This document shows positions 48,870 to 59,297 of a DNA stretch of 64,000 bases, in pieces (position 1 is the stretch's first letter; each line of letters starts with the position of its first letter). The position numbers and the translations under genes were made by a program. A model generated the notes under the pieces. The model was not told the origin of the DNA and made no database searches. It was given only the letters and a program-made list of their open reading frames with translations. Source of the stretch: Balamuthia mandrillaris. Lineage: Eukaryota. The stretch spans positions 124,001 to 188,000 of the forward strand of contig JAVKOQ020000002.1 in assembly GCA_031835245.2 (NCBI GenBank), read 5' to 3'.

Positions 48870-49529
48870 TTATTTGAACTTTAATGAGAAGGACTTGTGC
48901 GTTGGCTCCGTAAATACATCCACAAGAGGCGTGTTGCCAGCTGCCGTAAGAATCTTTGACAACACAACAATAAGCAAAAAAGCGATAAATTACATGCAAG
49001 TTGGAACAAAGAAAAGAGGGGGTGATGAGGAACAGAGAGGGCGAAGGAACTACATACAGCTAAGTTGACGGGATCCTTATTAGCACTTAACGAAAATATA
49101 GAGGATGACGAAGTGGTTATCCGATTCAAGAACTTGCCGTTACTCTTATGCCACAAATAGAGCTTGTCCTCATTTCCTGCTGATAAAATCTTTCGGGAAA
49201 TGAGCGTTGCTCATCAACCAGATGTGAGACAGCAAACCAACAAACAAACCTTATCTTCATGAAAGAGAACAGCTTGTGGAGCACCAGCCGAAGGCATGAC
49301 CGCCGTTGCCGTCAAGGAAGAGAGATGCCATAGAGAAAGGTAACGAGTGCCGCCGCCACACACCATCCAATTATCAGAAGGATCAAGAGCCATGCAGCTA
49401 ACCCAGCAGTTGGACTTGGCCTTGGGCAGCGACGACGTGTCGGTGGTGACAGCCTGCAGTGCAACTGGATCTAGCATTGCTGTTGACTCCATCGTCCTTG
49501 TATCTTTGTGAAACGAATCGTAAATGGAA

Positions 49530-49562
<33 letters not shown>

Positions 49563-50848
49563 CAAAGTAAAGACTTACCCCAAATACGAACGGTTCCATC
49601 TTCGGAGCCGGTGAGAACTTGACTCTCTTGCTGGCGCGCCACTATACAATGAAGGTAGTCGCTGTGTCCTTGCATTCTACCGATCTGCTTTTGTGTACTG
49701 AGATCGTAGGCATAAGCGTCCTTCTCTCCTGTTGCTGTGTACAATGTTTCCATCTTGACAATAGTGTCGTTCGTAACGGAATGAGGAAGAGGAAAAATAA
49801 TAGATAGAATATAATAGGCTGCACTTTATGGGGACAGCGTACTCGATTGTCAGTGGCCATTCCATTAGTTTCCGTTCTTGTTTTGTTTGTCAACTGGAAT
49901 AAAAGGTGGTTGGTGCTAACATAGTCTTCCACCACCCCTAAGTTTGTTTGTTGAGTGGCAAAAGACTGCTGCTGATGGGAGCCACCTTTGGTGGCAGCAC
50001 CCTCCTCCATAGCCATACCTGCATCGGTACATCCTGGTCAGGCATCATTTGTAGGTTAAACGAAAATCAACACAGCAGTACTTTCAGCAACTTCCTTGGC
50101 CCTTTTGACAATATCCCAACATTTCTGGGCTATGGCGTTCCAGTCCCATGCCCTTATTTCTTGTTCCGCTCCACTATCGTGATGTGAGAGAGAGAGAGGT
50201 GTCGTTAATAGCTGTATTAATGAAGAGAGCAAGAATAACGGGTGGATAGGACAGAGAGAGGAGGGCAGGAGAAATGTTGCACCTTATGAGCAACTGACCA
50301 TGGCCAGAGAAGCTCAACGAATATATGGAGGAGGAGTAATGGTGAGCTTGGAAGGAGTAGGTTGGTGGTGGACAGTGGTTCCTAAACAGCAAAGAGGAAG
50401 AAAATAAAATGAGAATAAAGCGGGAGAAGAGAACTGCAGCAGCAGAATGGGGAAGCCAATACTTGCCTCGACTTGCTCTTGCCAAGTGCGCTCTGCCAAT
50501 AGCCTTCACTCTGATAATGAGGCACAAACATAGAGCACGAGCATGCACACAGAGACAATAAAAATCAGAAGAAGAAGCAGCAGAAGGGGGAGAGAGCAAG
50601 CTACTCACCAAACAACGGTCCAGCAGCCACACGCAGAGTTTACCATAAGAGTTGCCGCACACTAGAAAGTGACCGTCTGGTGAGAATGCGGAGGCGAAGA
50701 CAGTGGTCTCCCGTTCCCTCTGCTTCTTCAGCAACCGTTCTCGGTACGCTGAGGAGAATGAAGCTTCTTCTGCTGCTGCTGCTGCTGCGGTGCTCTCCAT
50801 CTTGCCGTTGCTGTTGCTCCTTTCTCCGTTGAATGTTCGTGTCGTCAT
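48870..50848 (-). CDS. THOC6: WD40 protein, THO complex subunit 6-like
   Basis: FSPDGHFLVCGNSYG, GHSDYLHCI, TGSEDGTVRIW and WMVCGGG..LSLWHL match THOC6 hallmarks. Confidence 0.8.
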
Positions 50849-50964
50849 CGAAAAATATCATGTCGACGTTTTAGCTTTGCAAAAGGAAAGCTTGAACTAT
50901 TCCACCCAGCGGTAGAAGAAGCAGAAGAAGAAGCAGAAGAAGAAGAAGAACCCCAAGTAAAAGT

Positions 50965-51929
50965 ATGGAGGAGCAGCTAGCGGCTGCTTTCGAAACGTTG
51001 ATAGAGCAGCCGGACGTGGACTTTCATCCGGCCCTCACCACTTTGGTGAAACTGGTGAACAATGTACTGCAGCACCCTGAACCGGACTCCAAGTTCAGAA
51101 AAGTGGCCTTCACCAGCAAGGTCTTTCAGGACAAGGTGTGGAAGGTCAAAGGCGCACCCCAGTTTCTGCAAGCTTTGGGCTGGACCAGGGTAATCCTCTG
51201 CTTTCTTTCGTTGAATTGTTGTTTTTTAAAAAATATATATTGATTATTTTTTTTGTTCTGTTCTGTTCTGTTCTGTTCTGTTCTGTTCTGTTCTGTTCTG
51301 TTCTGTTCTGTTCTGTTCTGTTCTGTTCTGTTCTGTTCTGTTCTGTTCTGTTCTGTTCTGTTCTGTTCTGTTCTGTTCTGTTCTGTTCTGTTCTGTTCTG
51401 TTCTGTTCTGTTCTGTTCTGTTCTGTTCTGTTCTGTTCTGTTCTGTTCTGTTCTGTTCTGTTCTGTTCTGTTCTGTTCTGTTCTGTTCTGTTCTGTTCTG
51501 TTCTGTGGGTGAACTACTGGGCGGATAGGAAGGAGACTTTTTCATATTCCCAGAGAGTGGCAGCATGGAGGCTCTGGAAATAGGGTGGACCTTGCTGCAG
51601 ACAGGAGAGGACCGCCACGCTGAGTACCAACGCCAGCAGCGTGCCAAGCAACGCAAGCAAGAACACGCGGCGGAAGAGGCCAAGAAGAAAGAAATATTGG
51701 CCAAGGTGCAGGCTGACCGCAAGGAAGTAAGCCAAAAAGAATACCATGACTCGGTACATATTTACATGCTCCCACGTACTTGCTTAGCGGCTTTAAGAGA
51801 CACGTCTTAACTTCTTTTATCAACTTTTGTCCTATCATGCAGAAATCTCAGCTGTGTGGTGGTGGAGCTAACATTAGCAACTTTAGGGCTTTGGGGGTTG
51901 ACCTTAACAAAGGTGGTCGCTGAGGTTAA
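50965..51929 (+). CDS. PUB-domain protein, probable selenoprotein (Sec at penultimate codon). Exons 50965-51189, 51529-51753, 51843-51929; 178 aa
   Basis: PUB signature LVKLVNNVLQHP...KFRKV...FQDKV..VKGA.QFLQALGW, then a charged coiled coil. Last exon KSQLCGGGANISNFRALGVDLNKGGR-TGA-G-TAA. SECIS-like hairpin downstream. Confidence 0.85.
51254..51505. repeat. Perfect (TTCTG)n pentanucleotide microsatellite in intron 1 of the PUB gene
   Basis: Directly visible. Confidence 0.97.
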
Positions 51930-52190
51930 TGGTTAGTTTGGTTTCCTTTTACAATCGCTCTATCTTCAATTGGCTGAATTCATTGTTATTCTATTGTTAC
52001 AAGCGTCGGGAGACACGTTTTGCATAAGGAATGCTAAGATAATAGGAAGGAGTGGCACCATCTCGTTTGTAGATATAGTATTTCTTCCCTTCCTACTCTG
52101 TGCATAGCCTCCCGACGCCCTCATCCCAAGGAGTGATTAGGCAGGATTCCACCGCACATTAGCGTCACCACAAGTGCACCTGCTGTTGCT

Positions 52191-52256
52191 GCGGAGCAAT
52201 GAAGCATTGCGCATCAACCCCTCCCATGATGGGCTGCGTACTGCTGACTTTATTCC
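52191..52256 (+). promoter_or_regulatory. Eukaryotic SECIS element (type II) in the 3' UTR
   Basis: ATGAA (52199-52203) / TGAC (52245-52248) core. Helix II GCATTGCGCA (52204-52213) pairs with TGCGTACTGC (52235-52244) at 9 of 10 positions. Apical AA at 52216-52217, CCC/GGG mini-stem, lower stem GGAG/TTCC. AATAAA at 52289-52294. Confidence 0.82.
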
Positions 52257-52855
52257 TTTTGTAATCGCTCCCTCCTTTTGGACATTAAAATAAAACCAAG
52301 CTCTCTCACGAGCCCCTTCGGTTCATCTCCAAGTTTGGCTTGAAAGATGGTGAAAAGGTGGCACAAGTGGAGCCCTTGCCCAAAAACAGGCACTTGTCTC
52401 ATGAAGCGGGAGCCCAGCATAAGTATAAGAGCATTCAGTGTTGCAGCCCATTCTTGTCAAGGAGGAGCCGCAAACCAATCCTGCATCGCATCTGTAATTG
52501 TCGTCCTTCCTCTTCTTCTGAAGCGCCGCAAGGTGGCCATAAGTTTCATACAGGACAACGGGGAAATAAGCCGCTCTTACTCCTAACCTGCCCTGCCGGG
52601 CGTACATTCCTCCTCCTCCACCCCTTCTCGGCCATTTGACTGAAAAGAAATGGCGAGGGAAAAAAGGGCAGCAAAAAAGTCCTCCGCTTCCCCGCTACTT
52701 TCAGCGGGGGGAAATTAGTGTCGACAAGGACCACTGTCAAACCCTACCATTGCGCGTTAGTCATTTATGTAGGTGCGCATATTTTCCGAGAAAACGCAAA
52801 AAAAAAAGCCGGTTCCTCTTTGGAAGAAGAAGCGCCAAGAGGAAGGACTGGCCAG

Positions 52856-53286
52856 ATGGGAGTTTCCCACTTGTGGGAGCTTCTTGCCCCATCCGGCAAG
52901 TATTGCAGCCTCACTACGCTCAAGAACAAGCGACTGGCTATAGGTACGCTGGTTTCTGTCCCCCCCCCCCTTTTTTTTGGCGCTCAGTAGTTTTTTTTCG
53001 TTTGGATTGTTGGAATCAGATGCGTCGGTATGGATTTCTCAGTTGGTTGCTGGCATGGTTGATGATAGAGGCAACCCCATTCCAAATGCACACCTCAAAG
53101 GTCTATTTACTCGTGTATGGTTCGTTTGACATCATAACCTGTTGTGCAACCAGTTCTTTGCTAACCCTTTGTATTTTTATCACCTGTCTCCACCAGCAAG
53201 TTGCTTTTTTTTGGGATAAAGCCAGTCTTCGTGTTTGATGGCGGCGTACCTGCCCTAAAGCAACGCACAATCGTACCTTCTCCTTT

Positions 53287-53337
<51 letters not shown>

Positions 53338-55935
53338 TCTCATTCATTATTGGCATGAAGGCTGCACGACGGCGGCGTAGAGAGGACGCAGAGAGAAACT
53401 ACCGCAAAACCGCGGAGAAGCTTTTGATGCAGCGGTTAGGATTGGAATTTGTGGAAAAGCAAACAGAGAGAAAACGGCGAGGCAAGCGGAAACGACTGGA
53501 AGAATTGGAGGAAGAGGAAATGTTAGCATTTTCTCAGTTGGAACAGAGTCAAAATGAAGCAGAGAAAGAGAAAGGTACGGAAGAGGAGACAAAAGAAGAG
53601 ATAGAACGGAGAAATGACGAGGTAGAGATTTGGGAGTTAGAGGCACAGCCAGAGTTAGAAGAGACTAGACTTCTTTCTGCCTTGGGGATCGATCCAGAAG
53701 TTTATGCTGCCCTTCCTGAGGTCTGCTATGATTCCTTTTGAATCGTTGCACGTTGCTTATTCGTTCTGGCCTTCGTACCAGGAATTGCAAGAGGAAGTGC
53801 GTCAAAGTGTACATAGCAGACAGGTAGTGTTGGAAATGAGAGAAGAGCAATCCATCTTAACAGGAGAATGGGACGACCCAATCTTGCAACGTCATCGGTT
53901 AAATGCCCAGCTCTTGCAATCCCAGATGAGCATTAAACACAACAACCCTAAAGCAGCCCAAGACTTTTCTCAACAACAGTTGCAAAACCTCGTCAAGAAC
54001 GGTGAGATGTGGCGAAAGATAAAGCAGACCAAAGAGGAAATTAAACACTCGCTTTCTTCTTCCAACTTGTCCAACTCAGAAAATCGAATTGCCTCCGACT
54101 CGACCAGAGAATACATGTTGATATCTGTGGACGAAGAGGCGGAGAAGGAAAAGGAGTTAGACACAGAGGATCACTCGACATCACCTTCCAAAAAGAGACG
54201 AGTAGACAAAGGTAAAGAGAAGATGGATAATTACAGCAGTGCAGAAACGTTTTCCTTTTCACGGTTTTTCGATGAGGAAGGGCAGGGTGAGAGTATAAGT
54301 GGAGGAGGCGTTTTGACAGCAGAAGGGGAGGAGGCAGAACAAGAGGTCCAAGGTGGCGGATTCCTCATCGAGTCATCTGATAACGAGGATGAAGTGGAGG
54401 TTCAGTCTAAGCTTTTGGGAAAAGAGGAGAACCATAGCGAGAGGCGGGACAAAGGCAAGGAGAAAGAGGTAGAACCGGAGAAGGAGAAAGAACAGGAGAA
54501 GGAGGCTATTGTTTTTTATCGTAAACAAACATCATCGGTGAGTGAAGAAGCTTTTCAGTTCCTTGAAGAACCGGTAACTTTTTTCTTCTTACCTTTTCGC
54601 TTTCTCTCTCTCTCTCTCTCCTTTGCTAATCAGCACTGTTTCCAAGGTATTGCCACCAGGACCAAATGTGTCCCCGATAAAGGCAAGAACCTCCATCCTT
54701 GAGCAGCCTCAAAAGGGTAACGAAATTTATGGGGTGGAAGAGCAAGAAGAAAGTGGCATCGATATCACTTTTGATCCCACCAAAGTTACCTCAACCGACA
54801 TTTTCGATTTTTCTCTCTTCGAACAGCCAAACACTAACGGTGAAGAGGAAAAAGGGATACAAAAGGAGAAGAGAAAAGAACAAGATTTCTTATTTGAAGA
54901 TGAGTTATTGGCCATTCAATTACAAGAAGAAGAAGAAGAAGAAGACGAAGAAGACGACGACGAACCGAAAGACCGCCATAGCAGCGATACCCAACTAAAC
55001 AATGCTACGGAACCTGCCCCTTCAAACGCACCCCCGGAAATCGCCACCTCCATCGATACCTCTGTCGATGAAGTACATCGACAGTTAGAAATGGAAGCCA
55101 TTCTTCTCTCTCAAAAAGCCAAGCAACAAGGCAAAGCCATCCAATCCGTCACCAACGAGATGTTGTCCGACTGCCAAGAACTGCTGCAACTATTTGGCAT
55201 TCCTTATGTCATCAGCCCCATGGAAGCCGAAGCTCAGTGCGGCTACCTCAACGCCAACGGGTTGGTTCATGGTGTTGTGACAGAAGACAGCGATATATTC
55301 CTTGTTGGTGGACTCACCGTCTACAAAAAGTTCTTCTCCAGAGAGCACCTGGAGGCCTACTCCTTGGGCGACATCAAGAGAAAGCTGGGTTTGGATCGAC
55401 AAAAGCTCATCGAGCTGGCATTATTGTTGGGAAGCGATTACACAGAAGGAGTCAAAGGAATCGGTCCTGTTCACGCCATGGAAGTCATAAGTACTTTTGA
55501 AAGTTTGGATGCTTTCAAGAAGTGGTGGGAGAGTCCGAACACGGATGATTTCCCTGTTGACGAAAAAGAGGAGGATAGGGAGAATGAGGATAAAAAGGAG
55601 AATGCAAATGGTAGAGTTGGTTTTGATGAACGAGACTACAAACGAGTTAGCATCAAATTGGTTGGTGTATTATTGTTTCCTTACATTCCGCATTTCTCTT
55701 TTGAACGTTCTCACTTTTCTTCACTAATAGCGACAATTGAAGAAGCGAATCAAATTGCGGAAAGATTTTCCCAGTCAAGCAGTTGTAGAAGCTTATCTCC
55801 ATCCGCAAGTGGACGAATCTCTTGAATCGTTTGAGTGGGGCAAACCTGACTTAGATGGCCTTAGAAAATATCCTTTGTTGCTTACGACCTTCCATTTGTC
55901 GTTTCCTTCTCTCTCCATCTCTCTCTCTCTCTCTG

Positions 55936-55992
<57 letters not shown>

Positions 55993-56381
55993 GCTTTCCT
56001 TTCTTTCTCAACATTATTCTTTGCTTTACCTTGACCAATCATCTATTCACATTTGCAGCACACAAAATGGGCTGGAGTGAAGAAAGAGCAGATGAGTTGG
56101 TTATTCCTTTGTTGAAAAAGAGCGTTGAGGAGGCAGAGCAAGAGGCCGAAAAGGAAAGCACAACTACACAGAAAACATTGGATGACTGGTTCCTCCAAAT
56201 CCCCAAAAAGTTGGAATCTGTTCGTGTGCACAACGCCATTCAACATTTGGTTTCCAAAAACAGCAACAAAAATACGGCTGGAACTAAGGCAAAACGAGGA
56301 AGAAAAAGCACAGCCACCACAACTACAGCCAGGAAAAAGGGAAGCGCCACGAAGAAAACACCGAAAGGAACCAAGAAATAG
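52856..56381 (+). CDS. ERCC5: XPG/Rad2 nucleotide-excision-repair endonuclease
   Basis: [27 protein letters not shown], long acidic spacer, [39 protein letters not shown] and [11 protein letters not shown]-like QKTLDDWF and basic NLS tail. Confidence 0.93.
55868..56050 (+). other. U12-type (minor spliceosome) AT-AC intron in XPG
   Basis: 5' ATATCCTT, branch-like TACCTTGAC at 56027-56035, 3' CAC. Removal restores [13 protein letters not shown] in frame. Confidence 0.85.
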
Positions 56382-56390
56382 AAAAATTCT

Positions 56391-56412
56391 AAGAAAAACG
56401 AGGGGTCATCAA
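56391..56412. repeat. Left copy of 22-bp direct repeat AAGAAAAACGAGGGGTCATCAA
   Basis: Identical to 58837-58858. Confidence 0.9.
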
Positions 56413-56517
56413 TAAAAAATAGGGCACTTTCCGTGTTGCAGCGCAAGAAAGGAGAAGGAAGCTGTCTGCTCAGGCCTTCACACTGGGTCACTTGCAACAC
56501 AACGACAATCGAAGAGA

Positions 56518-57986
56518 TGATGGACTCCTATACTAGTACGGCTCATGCTTTCCACCAAAAGGCTGAATGGCCCGAGAAAGAAATAGTTGAAGTGAATAGG
56601 TTGGACATCTCCCCCCAACCAAACTCCTGTGTCAAAATCCATCTACAGCCAGACGAAACTACATTAGCAGCTCTGCAACACAACGGTGGGGACATGAACA
56701 AGAAGGAGCGACTGCTGGAGGAGTTTTATGATACAACGTACTTTGACCTCCTAGGCGAAGGCTGCTGGCTTTGCCACTGCATCAACCTGGACACCAACGA
56801 GGAGGCATGGTGCTTGCAAACACTCTCGCGAAAGATAGATGAGTTTACCCTTGCCTATGAACAAGAGGTTGTTGACCTCGAGCAGATTGTTTCGAAACTA
56901 CGTTCCATGTTTTCAGCCTTCCAACTCCCACAACCCACGGAAGACGCGTGGAACCCTGCCTGTTGGTGTTCCAACCGCTTCGCGACTTTCCTGACCTATC
57001 GCTATCACCCATTCTCCTCCGTGTGCTTGGACTACTGTTGGTTCGACATCCAAGGGACAAGCAAGTACTCTGTGGTAACTTGGAGCAACATCCAGGACAC
57101 AGGAATCCGCGAGCTTCTGCAAGGATCCTCATCGACTTGCACCAAGATCGTTGAATACCTCCGCCGCAACGCCTATCCCCTGTACGAGATGATATGTGAG
57201 AAACAGTATGTGTTCAAGGCCAGTGACGAAGCATCCTGCTTAGCTCCACTTGACAGACCACGAGTGGAAGACCTGAAGCAGATCAACCCCTTGTTGTTTG
57301 ACTATGAGGAAAAGAAGCAACTCTACGATGACCGAGCGGCAAAAGCGAAGCAAAGGTACCTCCCTGAATTGCTGAACGATCCTGCAAAGCATGGCAAGTG
57401 GGTCGCTGTCTTTGACAAGGAATGCGAGCCAATGGTGTTTGCTGATACTCATGAGCAAGCTGCTGAAAAAGCAATTGACGAGAAAAAAAAAATCGGAGCG
57501 AACGAGTTCTACCTATTTCGCATTGTTCCTGCAGGACTGCAGGATCTCGACTCGTTCTTGGATGATCAGATTCTCCTACAATGCAGCCTGCAGACCGATA
57601 CTGTGGATAACGCAAGTCAAAGAATCGTGATACCTGTTCTACTTGAACACCCCACCTACGGTCGCAAGAGTTTCCCTTCTGTTATTGTTGATACAGGCAC
57701 ACCCTGCGACCTTGTTATGACACCCTTTTCATATCTCGGGTGGCGCTTCCCCAGTGGATATCCCTCAACTGTTGACCCTGATTCCGTTACGCAATTAATA
57801 CAGGCCAAGTTAGTTGGTTTTGGCTTGGGCAATCCCTCTCGCTCATCTACTTTTCTTCGTGCTCCTGCTAATACAGTACTGAACATCGAAGTAACTGGCA
57901 TCAAAAGGCGCGATCTCTTGGGGCTCCCATTTCTATTGCGTGGCCCTTTCACCTTCTCGACATCTTTTACACGCGATTTGGCCTGA
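56518..57986 (+). CDS. Intronless ORF: unknown N-terminus, DUF5678-like module and C-terminal retropepsin-like (clan AA) aspartyl protease domain
   Basis: HGKWVAVFD...ADTHEQA segment; VIVDTG catalytic motif and LLGLPFL C-terminal motif; no introns, unlike neighbours. Confidence 0.6.
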
Positions 57987-57989
57987 TAA

Positions 57990-58750
57990 AGCCAAGGTCA
58001 AACAAGCTACCGTCCAACAAATCGTGCCCAAAGAGCTTAGGAACGAGATACTTCGTCAGTTCCACGATGTTCCTACGGGTGGGCATTTCGGCCTTACGAA
58101 GATGTACTCCCGCCTCATCACGCAGTACTGGTGGCCTGGAATTCACAAAGATGTGGAACGTTGGGTCAAGGGCTGTGTGGAATGCCAGGAGGCGAAGGCT
58201 CCGCGGAAGAAAGCTGACGGGCCGTTGGGTCACATCATTGCAACGAGCCAGGCGAGTTGGTCTGCATGGATCTGATCGGTGAGTTGCCCTTGACGGCCGA
58301 AGGGTACCGATACGCCTTGGTCACCATCGACGCCTTCACGCGTTGGCCGGACATTCGTCCATTGAAGCCGAAACAGGCAAAAGAAGTGGCAAAGGCCTTA
58401 CTTGAAATCTTCGCGAGCACTGACCTCCCGAAGGAGCTTCTGTCTGATCAAGGAAGAGAGTTCGTTAACAAACTCAACAATGAGCTTTCGACTCTTCTTG
58501 ACATCAAGCATAAATACGCCACAGCAGAGCATCCCCAAGGAAACGGCATGGTTGAACGATACAACCGCACCCTTAAGGAGCAGCTCCGAAAATTCGTGGA
58601 TGGCGGGCAACAAGTCTGGAGTGCGTACCTTCCAATGCTACTTTATTCCTATCGCCACGCGCCGCTGCCAGGACGACGATTTACCCCTTACGAACTTATG
58701 TTTGGGAGGAAGTCTCGGTCTCAACTCTTCCTCCGTCTCCAGCAAGGTGT
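57990..58750 (+). mobile_element. Ty3/Gypsy-type integrase fragment (H2C2 zinc finger plus DDE core) with a frameshift
   Basis: FHD..TGGHFG...YWWPG...CVECQ, then in another frame VCMDLIG, IDAFTRW, SDQGREF, HPQGNGMVERYN and TPYELMFGR. Frameshift near 58250. Confidence 0.9.
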
Positions 58751-58836
58751 AACTCTTCCTCCGGCTTGCCATGCCGTTTCTCCGTCTTCTCTTTTTGAGC
58801 GTTGCCGTTTCTCCGTCTTCTCTTTTTACAAAATCC

Positions 58837-58858
58837 AAGAAAAACGAGGGGTCATCAA
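58837..58858. repeat. Right copy of the 22-bp direct repeat
   Basis: Identical to 56391-56412. Confidence 0.9.
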
Positions 58859-59297
58859 CAAATAGTGGCGTTGATCGAGGGTTCTTCTCGAATTTTTTTT
58901 TTGTCCGTTGGAACTTTCCGTGCAGGCCCCACCCCAAATTAGCAGGCGGCGGCGGCGGCGGAAAGGAGAAGAAAGAGACTTAGACCTCCTTCACACAAAA
59001 AGGTGTGGTGCGTGCGGGGGTGCAAGGGAGAGAAGGAAAAAAAATAAAATAGAAATACCCCCCCAAAAAGGACGTCGACGTAAGTAGTTTTGTTGTTTAT
59101 TTTTTTTCAAACTTTTTTATGTGTTGGTGAGCATTTAAAGAACCTGCTTAGCAGCGCTAAGCAAAAAACAAAGAAGTGGGGGAAAGAAGAAGAAGAGGGG
59201 GTGTTGTGTGTTTTTTTTTCTGTTTGCATGTTTGTTGACTTGTTTTTTTTTTTTTTTTGACCATTTTGCTTGTTCAAAATGACCGCAAAAGTGAAAG

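What the first reader, a model, noticed from the sequence alone, without database searches (positions are those of the whole stretch)
50965..52294. Probable PUB-domain selenoprotein ending GGR-Sec-G, with a matching SECIS element
Seen in sequence: three in-phase exons encode a PUB domain, a charged coiled coil and a Gly-rich tail ending AAA GGT GGT CGC TGA GGT TAA (TGA at 51921-51923, TAA two codons later). About 270 nt downstream, before an AATAAA, is a SECIS-shaped hairpin with AUGA core, 10-bp helix (one mismatch), apical AA, mini-stem and opposing UGA. Established: eukaryotic Sec insertion needs such a 3' UTR element; SelK and SelS carry Sec near a Gly-rich C-terminus and work with p97/VCP in ERAD; PUB domains bind the p97 C-terminal tail. 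Inference: this is a soluble p97-adaptor selenoprotein with no TM helix, unlike SelK/SelS. I do not recognise it as a standard selenoprotein family, and pipelines would truncate it at the TGA.
Basis: partly seen in the sequence, partly recalled or inferred. Interest (0 to 1): 0.92.

Follow-up and report, generated by a model that had tools for sequence, protein, structure and literature searches.

The report
Soluble PUB-domain selenoprotein of widespread family
This expressed amoeba gene has an early UGA 'stop' that relatives keep at the same place, mostly with a recoding hairpin behind it, so it very likely makes a selenium protein that likely docks on the p97 unfolding machine, and a mollusc relative suggests animal selenoprotein lists have missed the family.

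Summary
Confirmed and extended. RNA supports the three coding exons and covers the SECIS. NCBI's Balamuthia mandrillaris protein stops at the TGA (176 aa).

The gene belongs to a large family: PUB domain, long helix, then an F-x-D-[IV]-G-[VI]-D-L-N-x-x-G tail (67 of 150 representatives). A scan blind to the stop codon found 11 family loci among 53 hits. All 11 have TGA there, with a second stop one or two codons later (8 informative lineages). Six carry a canonical SECIS, against 0 of 42 non-family loci. No Cys form was seen. Sec recoding is about 93% likely but untested at the bench, and the genome's Sec machinery could not be checked.

It is not SelK/SelS (no membrane helix). p97 binding is inferred from a family-conserved pocket; two pocket residues deviate here. 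A 'PUB domain-containing' selenoprotein family is already listed by name for algae (PMC7539508); I could not see its sequences. New here: Amoebozoa, the tail motif, and a chiton RefSeq protein ending at the same GGG. That points to an animal selenoprotein family missing from the lists I read, but the chiton codon was not seen.

The parts
50965..51189 (+). Exon 1, ATG and most of the PUB domain (aa 1-75)
   Evidence: loose read ends at 51528 match the end of this exon (X23 4 reads and an X14 contig)
51190..51528 (+). Intron 1 (GT..AG) with a perfect (TGTTC)x50.6 array at 51254-51506
   Evidence: junction supported only by loose ends, because exon 1 was not in the laid stretch
51529..51753 (+). 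Exon 2, end of PUB and the long charged helix (aa 76-150)
51754..51842 (+). Intron 2 (89 nt, GT..AG)
   Evidence: 6 reads in X23, contigs in X13 and X14
51843..51931 (+). Exon 3, conserved tail motif, Sec codon, Gly, stop and 2 nt of UTR
51921..51923 (+). In-frame TGA, inferred Sec177 (penultimate residue of 178)
   Evidence: TGA at the same place in 11 of 11 family loci
51927..51929 (+). TAA, inferred true stop
   Evidence: second stop one or two codons after the TGA in 11 of 11 family loci
51932..52003 (+). 3'UTR intron (72 nt, GT..AG) starting 2 nt after the TAA; removing it keeps the SECIS
   Evidence: X23 2 reads, X13 and X14 contigs; X17 and X18, possibly the same data
52004..52320 (+). 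Exon 4, 3'UTR; the end is approximate, where RNA cover fades
   Evidence: depth table
52199..52248 (+). Type II SECIS: AUGA 52199-52202, helix II 52204-52213 / 52235-52244, AA 52216-52217, mini-stem, UGAC 52245-52248
   Evidence: covered by RNA reads and contigs
52289..52294 (+). AATAAA, putative polyadenylation signal
   Evidence: X23 cover fades about 25-30 nt later; an RNA end is not shown

Best explanation
This is a spliced, transcribed four-exon gene whose UGA at 51921 is very likely read as selenocysteine under its 3'UTR SECIS, giving a 178-aa protein without a membrane helix that ends G-G-R-U-G and likely acts as a redox-active adaptor of p97/VCP. Shown here: the gene structure, expression, the PUB fold, a helix of about 44 residues, a conserved tail motif, and TGA plus a second stop in relatives, with a SECIS in 6 of 11. 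Inferred, step by step. (1) SBP2/eEFSec recode the UGA (about 0.93). (2) The PUB pocket binds the p97 C-terminal PIM (about 0.65-0.7). (3) The helix holds the flexible tail roughly 65 A away, where the exposed Sec attacks disulfides or oxidised thiols of substrates handled by p97. With no conserved resolving Cys, a separate thioredoxin-type partner would recycle it; one relative is fused to a WCGPC thioredoxin. (4) In low selenium, termination at the UGA gives a Sec-less form. In most relatives that form ends in Gly-Gly, which I recall as the C-end degron of truncated SelK/SelS (recalled, untested here).
For: Blind tail scan of metagenomes: 11 of 53 loci score >= 20 bits to the family HMM and all 11 have TGA as first stop. 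It is followed by GGN+TAA/TAG in 8, TCT+TAA in 1, TAA in 1 and TGA in 1. After merging L011=L059 and L013~L022 and dropping L031, whose ciliate-type code leaves TGA as the only stop, 8 of 8 informative lineages have TGA; by arithmetic (1/3)^8 = 1.5e-4, or 0.004 at p = 0.5. Canonical SECIS in 6 of 11 loci against 0 of 42 non-family loci on the sense strand and 2 of 42 reverse; shuffles 0-3 per 100. Sub-threshold Rfam SECIS_1 matches in L013 (26.7 bits) and L022 (23.3 bits), gathering score 35. L013 and L022 differ by a both-sided change in helix II. 62 of 67 tail-bearing representatives end within 3 aa of the motif, and none has Cys at the Sec position. Two end in W-G, as TGA would read under a TGA=W code (their codons were not seen). 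Pocket residues in the 58-sequence alignment: N33 56/58, K43 53/58, Y/F44 56/58, K/R at 48 39/58, N at 51 46/58. Foldseek's top hits are the PNGase and UBXD1 PUB domains. Thioredoxin fusion in L014.
Against: No direct evidence of Sec insertion. The genome's Sec machinery could not be searched because no genome is held. No Rfam SECIS hit in this window and a weak fold z-score. 5 of 11 family loci have no canonical SECIS: L011 and L038 are too short (26 and 89 nt); L059 has only a hairpin without apical AA; L031 and L039 have none in 1.5 kb. This protein has Ala48 and Ser51 where PNGase has Arg55 and Asn58; the HOIP equivalent Asn102 is needed for PIM binding (PMC4017264). No VIM, VBM or SHP motif. 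Cys155 is not conserved, so a SelS-type internal selenosulfide is not general. RNA depth is low (25 reads in X23; none on the gene in X24).
Confidence: 0.65

Rival explanations
1. Sec is inserted, but the PUB domain, at least in this amoeba, binds a PIM-bearing protein other than p97, or the conserved tail motif rather than PUB sets the partner. The protein would then be a redox adaptor in another ubiquitin pathway.
For: Ala48 and Ser51 replace PNGase Arg55 and Asn58. In PNGase, R55A opens the pocket to internal PIMs, and HOIP's PUB prefers OTULIN (PMC4017264). The tail motif is about as conserved as the pocket (G168 55/58, D170 48/58, N172 47/58). No other p97 motif is present.
Against: Most family members keep K/R and N at those positions (39/58 and 46/58). 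All three PUB domains tested in PMC4017264 bound the p97 peptide.
Confidence: 0.18
2. Sec is inserted, but mainly as a selenium sensor. Read-through hides a Gly-Gly (here Arg) C-end degron, so the amount of this p97 cofactor follows selenium supply and the Sec does little catalysis.
For: 49 of 67 representatives end in GG at the annotated stop; there is no conserved resolving Cys and no Cys variant. The degron link is recalled from the CRL2 literature and comes from no call.
Against: This protein and 2 others of the 67 truncate to R or K after Gly, and 1 more ends in SR. A thioredoxin fusion (L014) favours redox chemistry. The two roles are not exclusive.
Confidence: 0.11
3. The UGA is an ordinary stop and the protein ends at GGR (GG or GGG in relatives); the hairpin is chance.
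For: All database proteins end there. No Rfam hit in the window. No Cys homologues to anchor the position.
Against: TGA in 8 of 8 informative lineages, a second stop one or two codons later in all, and SECIS in 6 of 11 against 0 of 42.
Confidence: 0.04
4. The UGA is read through as Cys or Trp, or by leaky read-through, independent of Sec.
For: Two representatives end in W-G.
Against: In the same 90% cluster, two members end GGG and two end GGGWG, which points to the gene caller's choice of code. SECIS elements follow the stop in relatives.
Confidence: 0.02

Closest known systems
Algal 'PUB domain-containing protein' selenoprotein family (Jiang et al. 2020, PMC7539508)
   Same: A selenoprotein family defined by a PUB domain. 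A haptophyte-dominated Atlas cluster resembles the query (score 0.85, a lead only).
   Different: In the passages and sections I read it is only named, as one of the least widespread algal families, and is not among the 19 families said to occur in animals. Its sequences and Sec position were not visible (supplement unreadable), so identity is probable but untested.
SELENOS (SelS/VIMP) and SELENOK
   Same: Penultimate Sec in a Gly-rich flexible C-terminus. SelS also has a splice donor just inside its 3'UTR (8 nt; PMC3628699). The link to p97 is established knowledge, recalled.
   Different: No membrane helix, no shared SelK/SelS Pfam family across 58 members, no VIM, and no conserved resolving Cys. 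A PUB domain is present instead. The SelS splice removes the SECIS; this one keeps it.
PUB-domain p97 cofactors PNGase/NGLY1, UBXD1/UBXN6, HOIP/RNF31
   Same: PUB sequence and fold; pocket Asn, Lys and Tyr/Phe conserved.
   Different: No UBX, transglutaminase or RING domain, so the NCBI name 'UBX domain-containing protein 6' is a misnomer. A UGA/SECIS tail follows instead.

Membership tests
Eukaryotic selenoprotein gene | In-frame UGA present in the mature mRNA | tested here: met
   Spliced reads and contigs cover 51907-51930 without change
Eukaryotic selenoprotein gene | SECIS (RUGA, AA 10-13 nt on, GA 15-39 nt on, stable helix) in the same transcript's 3'UTR | tested here: met
   Spacings 13 and 28 nt, dG -15.1, criteria from PMC2375036. 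RNA covers it; an X13 contig overlaps the spliced contig by 30 nt, but no single read spans UGA to SECIS. The Rfam model did not hit.
Eukaryotic selenoprotein gene | UGA and SECIS conserved in homologues | tested here: met
   TGA in 11 of 11 loci, SECIS in 6 of 11
Eukaryotic selenoprotein gene | Cys-containing homologues at the Sec position | tested here: not met
   0 of 67. Not required: SELENOK, SELENOS and MSP are almost only Sec in algae (PMC7539508).
Eukaryotic selenoprotein gene | Sec machinery in the genome (tRNA-Sec, eEFSec, SBP2, SPS2, PSTK, SecS) | not testable with these tools
   No genome held; no tRNA gene in the window. SPS2 candidates are reported for Acanthamoeba (PMC4561486).
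Eukaryotic selenoprotein gene | Selenium in the protein | not testable with these tools
   Needs 75Se labelling or mass spectrometry
SELENOK/SELENOS | Single N-terminal transmembrane helix | tested here: not met
   Maximum 19-residue hydropathy 0.72; 4 of 67 relatives reach 1.6
SELENOK/SELENOS | Sequence match to the SelK/SelS families | tested here: not met
   Only PUB is shared by the 58 members; no SelK/SelS family among the 25 of 104 families shown, which include every family hit by 2 or more members
SELENOK/SELENOS | Sec within the last few residues after a Gly-rich stretch | tested here: met
Algal PUB selenoprotein family (PMC7539508) | PUB domain plus Sec | tested here: met
   PUB shown; Sec inferred
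Algal PUB selenoprotein family (PMC7539508) | Homology over the tail and the same Sec position | not testable with these tools
   Supplement too large to read; the authors' database cannot be reached
PUB-type p97 cofactor | PUB fold | tested here: met
   AF2 pLDDT 92.5 with alignment; Foldseek of the single-sequence model to 2ccq, TM 0.84 by target, rmsd 1.6
PUB-type p97 cofactor | Intact PIM pocket | tested here: inconclusive
   N33, K43 and F44 kept; A48 and S51 deviate here but are mostly K/R and N in the family
UBXN6/UBXD1 | UBX domain and VIM | tested here: not met

The most novel reading that the evidence does not exclude
This is an ancient, Sec-only family of soluble p97 cofactors spread across amoebozoans, ciliates, algae and invertebrate animals, hidden because every annotation stops at its UGA. 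It would add a new family to the animal selenoproteome and give p97 a cytosolic selenium redox arm, separate from the ER-bound SelK and SelS.
Probability: 0.55. Interest if true: 0.82.

Novelty: new variant of a known kind. Interest (0 to 1): 0.66.

Why it matters
The invertebrate list I read has 21 selenoprotein families and no PUB family (PMC3473315), and the 2026 vertebrate survey searched only known families (PMC13134290). A chiton RefSeq protein ends at the same GGG and sits in a clade with three loci that show TGA plus SECIS. If its stop is TGA, animals have an overlooked selenoprotein family, and the tail motif gives a one-step way to test this in any genome. It would also be a second, soluble link between selenium and p97 quality control, with no membrane anchor to complicate biochemistry. 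The ceiling is set by the earlier listing of an algal 'PUB' selenoprotein family and by the lack of any functional test.

Tried and rejected
Rfam found no SECIS in the window. Word-based protein searches found only the protein itself and one relative. tblastn-confirmed locus searches found nothing in metagenomes or viral contigs. The 7 viral pattern hits are not family members (HMM 1 bit or less). MAFFT/RNAalifold on 7 SECIS elements misaligned them and predicted 0 pairs. I used a core-anchored pair table instead (53 of 56 cells paired at positions 1-8), which is circular because the elements were picked for pairing. The 9-of-9 probability printed is superseded: L031 is uninformative, so the count is 8 of 8. 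The homodimer prediction gave no verdict (score 0.00) and is not used either way. The careful tree did not finish; only the quick SH-aLRT tree was read (73 rows; P0029 and rows under 140 aa, or locus ORFs under 120 aa, left out). A SelS-type Cys155-Sec177 bond as the family mechanism was rejected because Cys155 is not conserved. The small-share runs X16, X17, X18 and X20 held only near-identical single fragments, not divergent relatives. Two papers were not held. Look-ups of earlier findings gave nothing on this gene and only unrelated selenoproteins of other genomes.

Full report
Observation. The database protein from this locus is 176 aa and stops at the TGA; it is named 'UBX domain-containing protein 6 [Balamuthia mandrillaris]'. 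A second annotated copy differs at 3 residues and ends the same way. Pfam finds only PUB (E 5.5e-17), no UBX.

The hairpin. The element at 52199-52248 meets the SECISearch spacing and energy rules quoted in PMC2375036 (passages). My own pattern scan found it as the only match with at most 1 helix mismatch on both strands of the window. Shuffled windows gave 0.4 such matches (0.03 with dG <= -12), and 1 of 3000 UTR shuffles gave one. Against this, Rfam SECIS_1 does not hit it and its folding z-score is only -1.39.

Transcripts. Four runs were laid on 51510-52700. Intron 2 is skipped by 6 X23 reads and by contigs of X13 and X14. Loose ends at 51528 match the end of exon 1. No depth was seen at 51950-51989. 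X23 reads and an X13 contig cover the SECIS, and cover fades about 25-30 nt past the AATAAA. X24 had no reads on the gene. X13 and X14 are only guessed to be RNA, but they are spliced. No single record spans UGA to SECIS. In the mRNA the SECIS lies 203 nt after the UGA, and the junction is 8 nt after the UGA and 2 nt after the TAA. By the recalled 50-nt rule that is too close to trigger junction-dependent decay.

The family. A tail-only search found a 172-aa PUB protein of Rhizamoeba saxonica, 31% identical over 162 aa and ending ...GVDLNKGG. The exhaustive search returned 278 proteins at E <= 0.001, of which 150 were listed. With a tail HMM built from 58 hand-picked sequences (so partly circular), 67 of 150 carry the tail. 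Of these 67, 62 end within 3 residues of it, 49 end in GG, and none has Cys where Sec would be. Of 10 looked up, one had an informative name: XP_064609339.1 of the chiton Liolophura sinensis, ending ...DLNRGGG. The Atlas places it nearest a 62-member cluster whose commonest phylum is Mollusca (21 with a known phylum). Basidiomycete-dominated PUB clusters also score high; whether they carry the tail was not seen.

The decisive test. I scanned metagenome contigs for the back-translated tail without specifying what follows. Of 53 loci, 11 score >= 20 bits to the family HMM; the other 42 score 10 or less. In all 11 the first stop is TGA, followed by GGN+TAA/TAG (8), TCT+TAA (1), TAA (1) or TGA (1). 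L011 and L059 are identical over the tail region and L013/L022 are 87% alike. L031 reads open only under a ciliate-type code, where TGA is the only stop. That leaves 8 of 8 informative lineages. One bulge-tolerant SECIS scan (dG <= -8, first 500 nt) hit 6 of 11 family loci and the window's UTR, 0 of 42 non-family loci on the sense strand and 2 of 42 reverse, with 0-3 of 100 shuffles positive. The misses are L011 and L038 (26 and 89 nt available), L059 (hairpin without apical AA), and L031 and L039 (nothing in 1.5 kb). Rfam gives sub-threshold SECIS_1 matches for L013 and L022, and these two differ by a both-sided change in helix II. I put Sec recoding at about 0.93.

Anatomy and mechanism. AlphaFold2 with the alignment gives pLDDT 92.5: a PUB domain, a helix at 101-144 and an extended tail at pLDDT 66-71. 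Foldseek on the single-sequence model matches the PUB domains of PNGase, UBXD1 and HOIP. There is no membrane helix and no VIM, VBM or SHP motif, and the only Cys (155) is not conserved. PUB domains bind the p97 C-terminal PIM (PMC4017264 and PMC5389986, passages). By the alignment, N33, K43 and F44 match PNGase N41, K50 and Y51, but A48 and S51 replace R55 and N58 (N41 and N58 numbered by counting). The family mostly keeps K/R (39/58) and N (46/58) there. So the family likely binds p97, while this member is less certain. My preferred model is a soluble p97 adaptor whose helix presents a flexible Sec to disulfides on p97 substrates, recycled in trans. The WCGPC thioredoxin fused to L014 fits that, but it is one case. 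The homodimer job gave no verdict.

Animals. In the quick tree, the chiton protein lies in a 24-row clade (SH-aLRT 97, no bootstrap) with L013, L040 and L053, all three with TGA and SECIS; L013 is 42% identical to it. The organisms of those loci are unnamed and the chiton codon could not be fetched, so Sec in animals is inferred, not shown.

What is known. The search for 'selenoprotein' plus 'PUB domain' listed 8 papers. One bears directly: PMC7539508 names 'PUB domain-containing protein' among 42 algal families, among the least widespread, not among its three novel ones and not among the 19 shared with animals (passages, section 5 and part 1 of 2 of section 12). Its supplement could not be read and may show the same tail and Sec position. 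The invertebrate table of PMC3473315 has 21 families without PUB (section 5 and passages). PMC13134290 searched known metazoan families only (passages). Dictyostelium's five selenoproteins do not include it (PMC2375036). Searches on Balamuthia, Acanthamoeba, Amoebozoa, algal PUB and invertebrate selenoproteomes (listings, with passages of PMC4561486 and PMC9083255) showed no description of this protein. The library lacks most subscription papers. SelS shares the penultimate Sec and a 3'UTR splice donor, but there the splice removes the SECIS (PMC3628699, passages and section 15).

Verdict. A real and very likely recoded selenoprotein gene. It works like a soluble SelK/SelS but is not a member of those families. 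It probably (about 0.7) belongs to the family that is named but, in what I could read, not characterised in algae. The new content is its presence in Amoebozoa, the defining tail motif, the Sec-only pattern and the probable reach into animals. Interest 0.66.

Noticed in passing
window 51932-52003: 3'UTR intron starting 2 nt after the stop, like the SELENOS donor 8 nt into its UTR, but keeping the SECIS; no SECIS-skipping form seen at low depth.
   Followed up: partly
window 51254-51506: Perfect (TGTTC)x50.6 array filling most of intron 1.
   Followed up: no
window 52030-52160: Strain differences in the 3'UTR (an 11-nt deletion at 52030 and 5 substitutions) but none listed inside the SECIS, at low depth.
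   Followed up: partly
window 52633-52700: Reads and contigs with many different flanks align here, upstream of the XPG gene; likely a dispersed transcribed repeat. Only weak short matches elsewhere in the window.
   Followed up: partly
window 49214-50857 (-) and 52858-56381 (+): Neighbours: a divergent WD40 gene starting about 110 nt upstream, and an XPG/RAD2-type nuclease gene downstream.
   Followed up: no
window 56382-58865 (+): A 534-codon open frame without a Pfam match, followed by integrase zinc-finger and core domains in two different frames; likely a degenerate or frameshifted retrotransposon.
   Followed up: no
L014 (- strand ORF): Family member fused to an N-terminal WCGPC thioredoxin, with TGA directly before TAA, so Sec would be the last residue; SECIS-like element present.
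   Followed up: partly
L038 and P0138: Family members with N-terminal EF-hands before the PUB domain.
   Followed up: no
L031: Member with a ciliate-type code ending GG-TGA-TGA; no SECIS found by my scans in 1.5 kb.
   Followed up: partly
L022 3' flank: Holds a repeat-like stretch of a kind I recall from stony-coral genomes (recalled, from no call, untested); if right it would put TGA plus SECIS in an animal.
   Followed up: no
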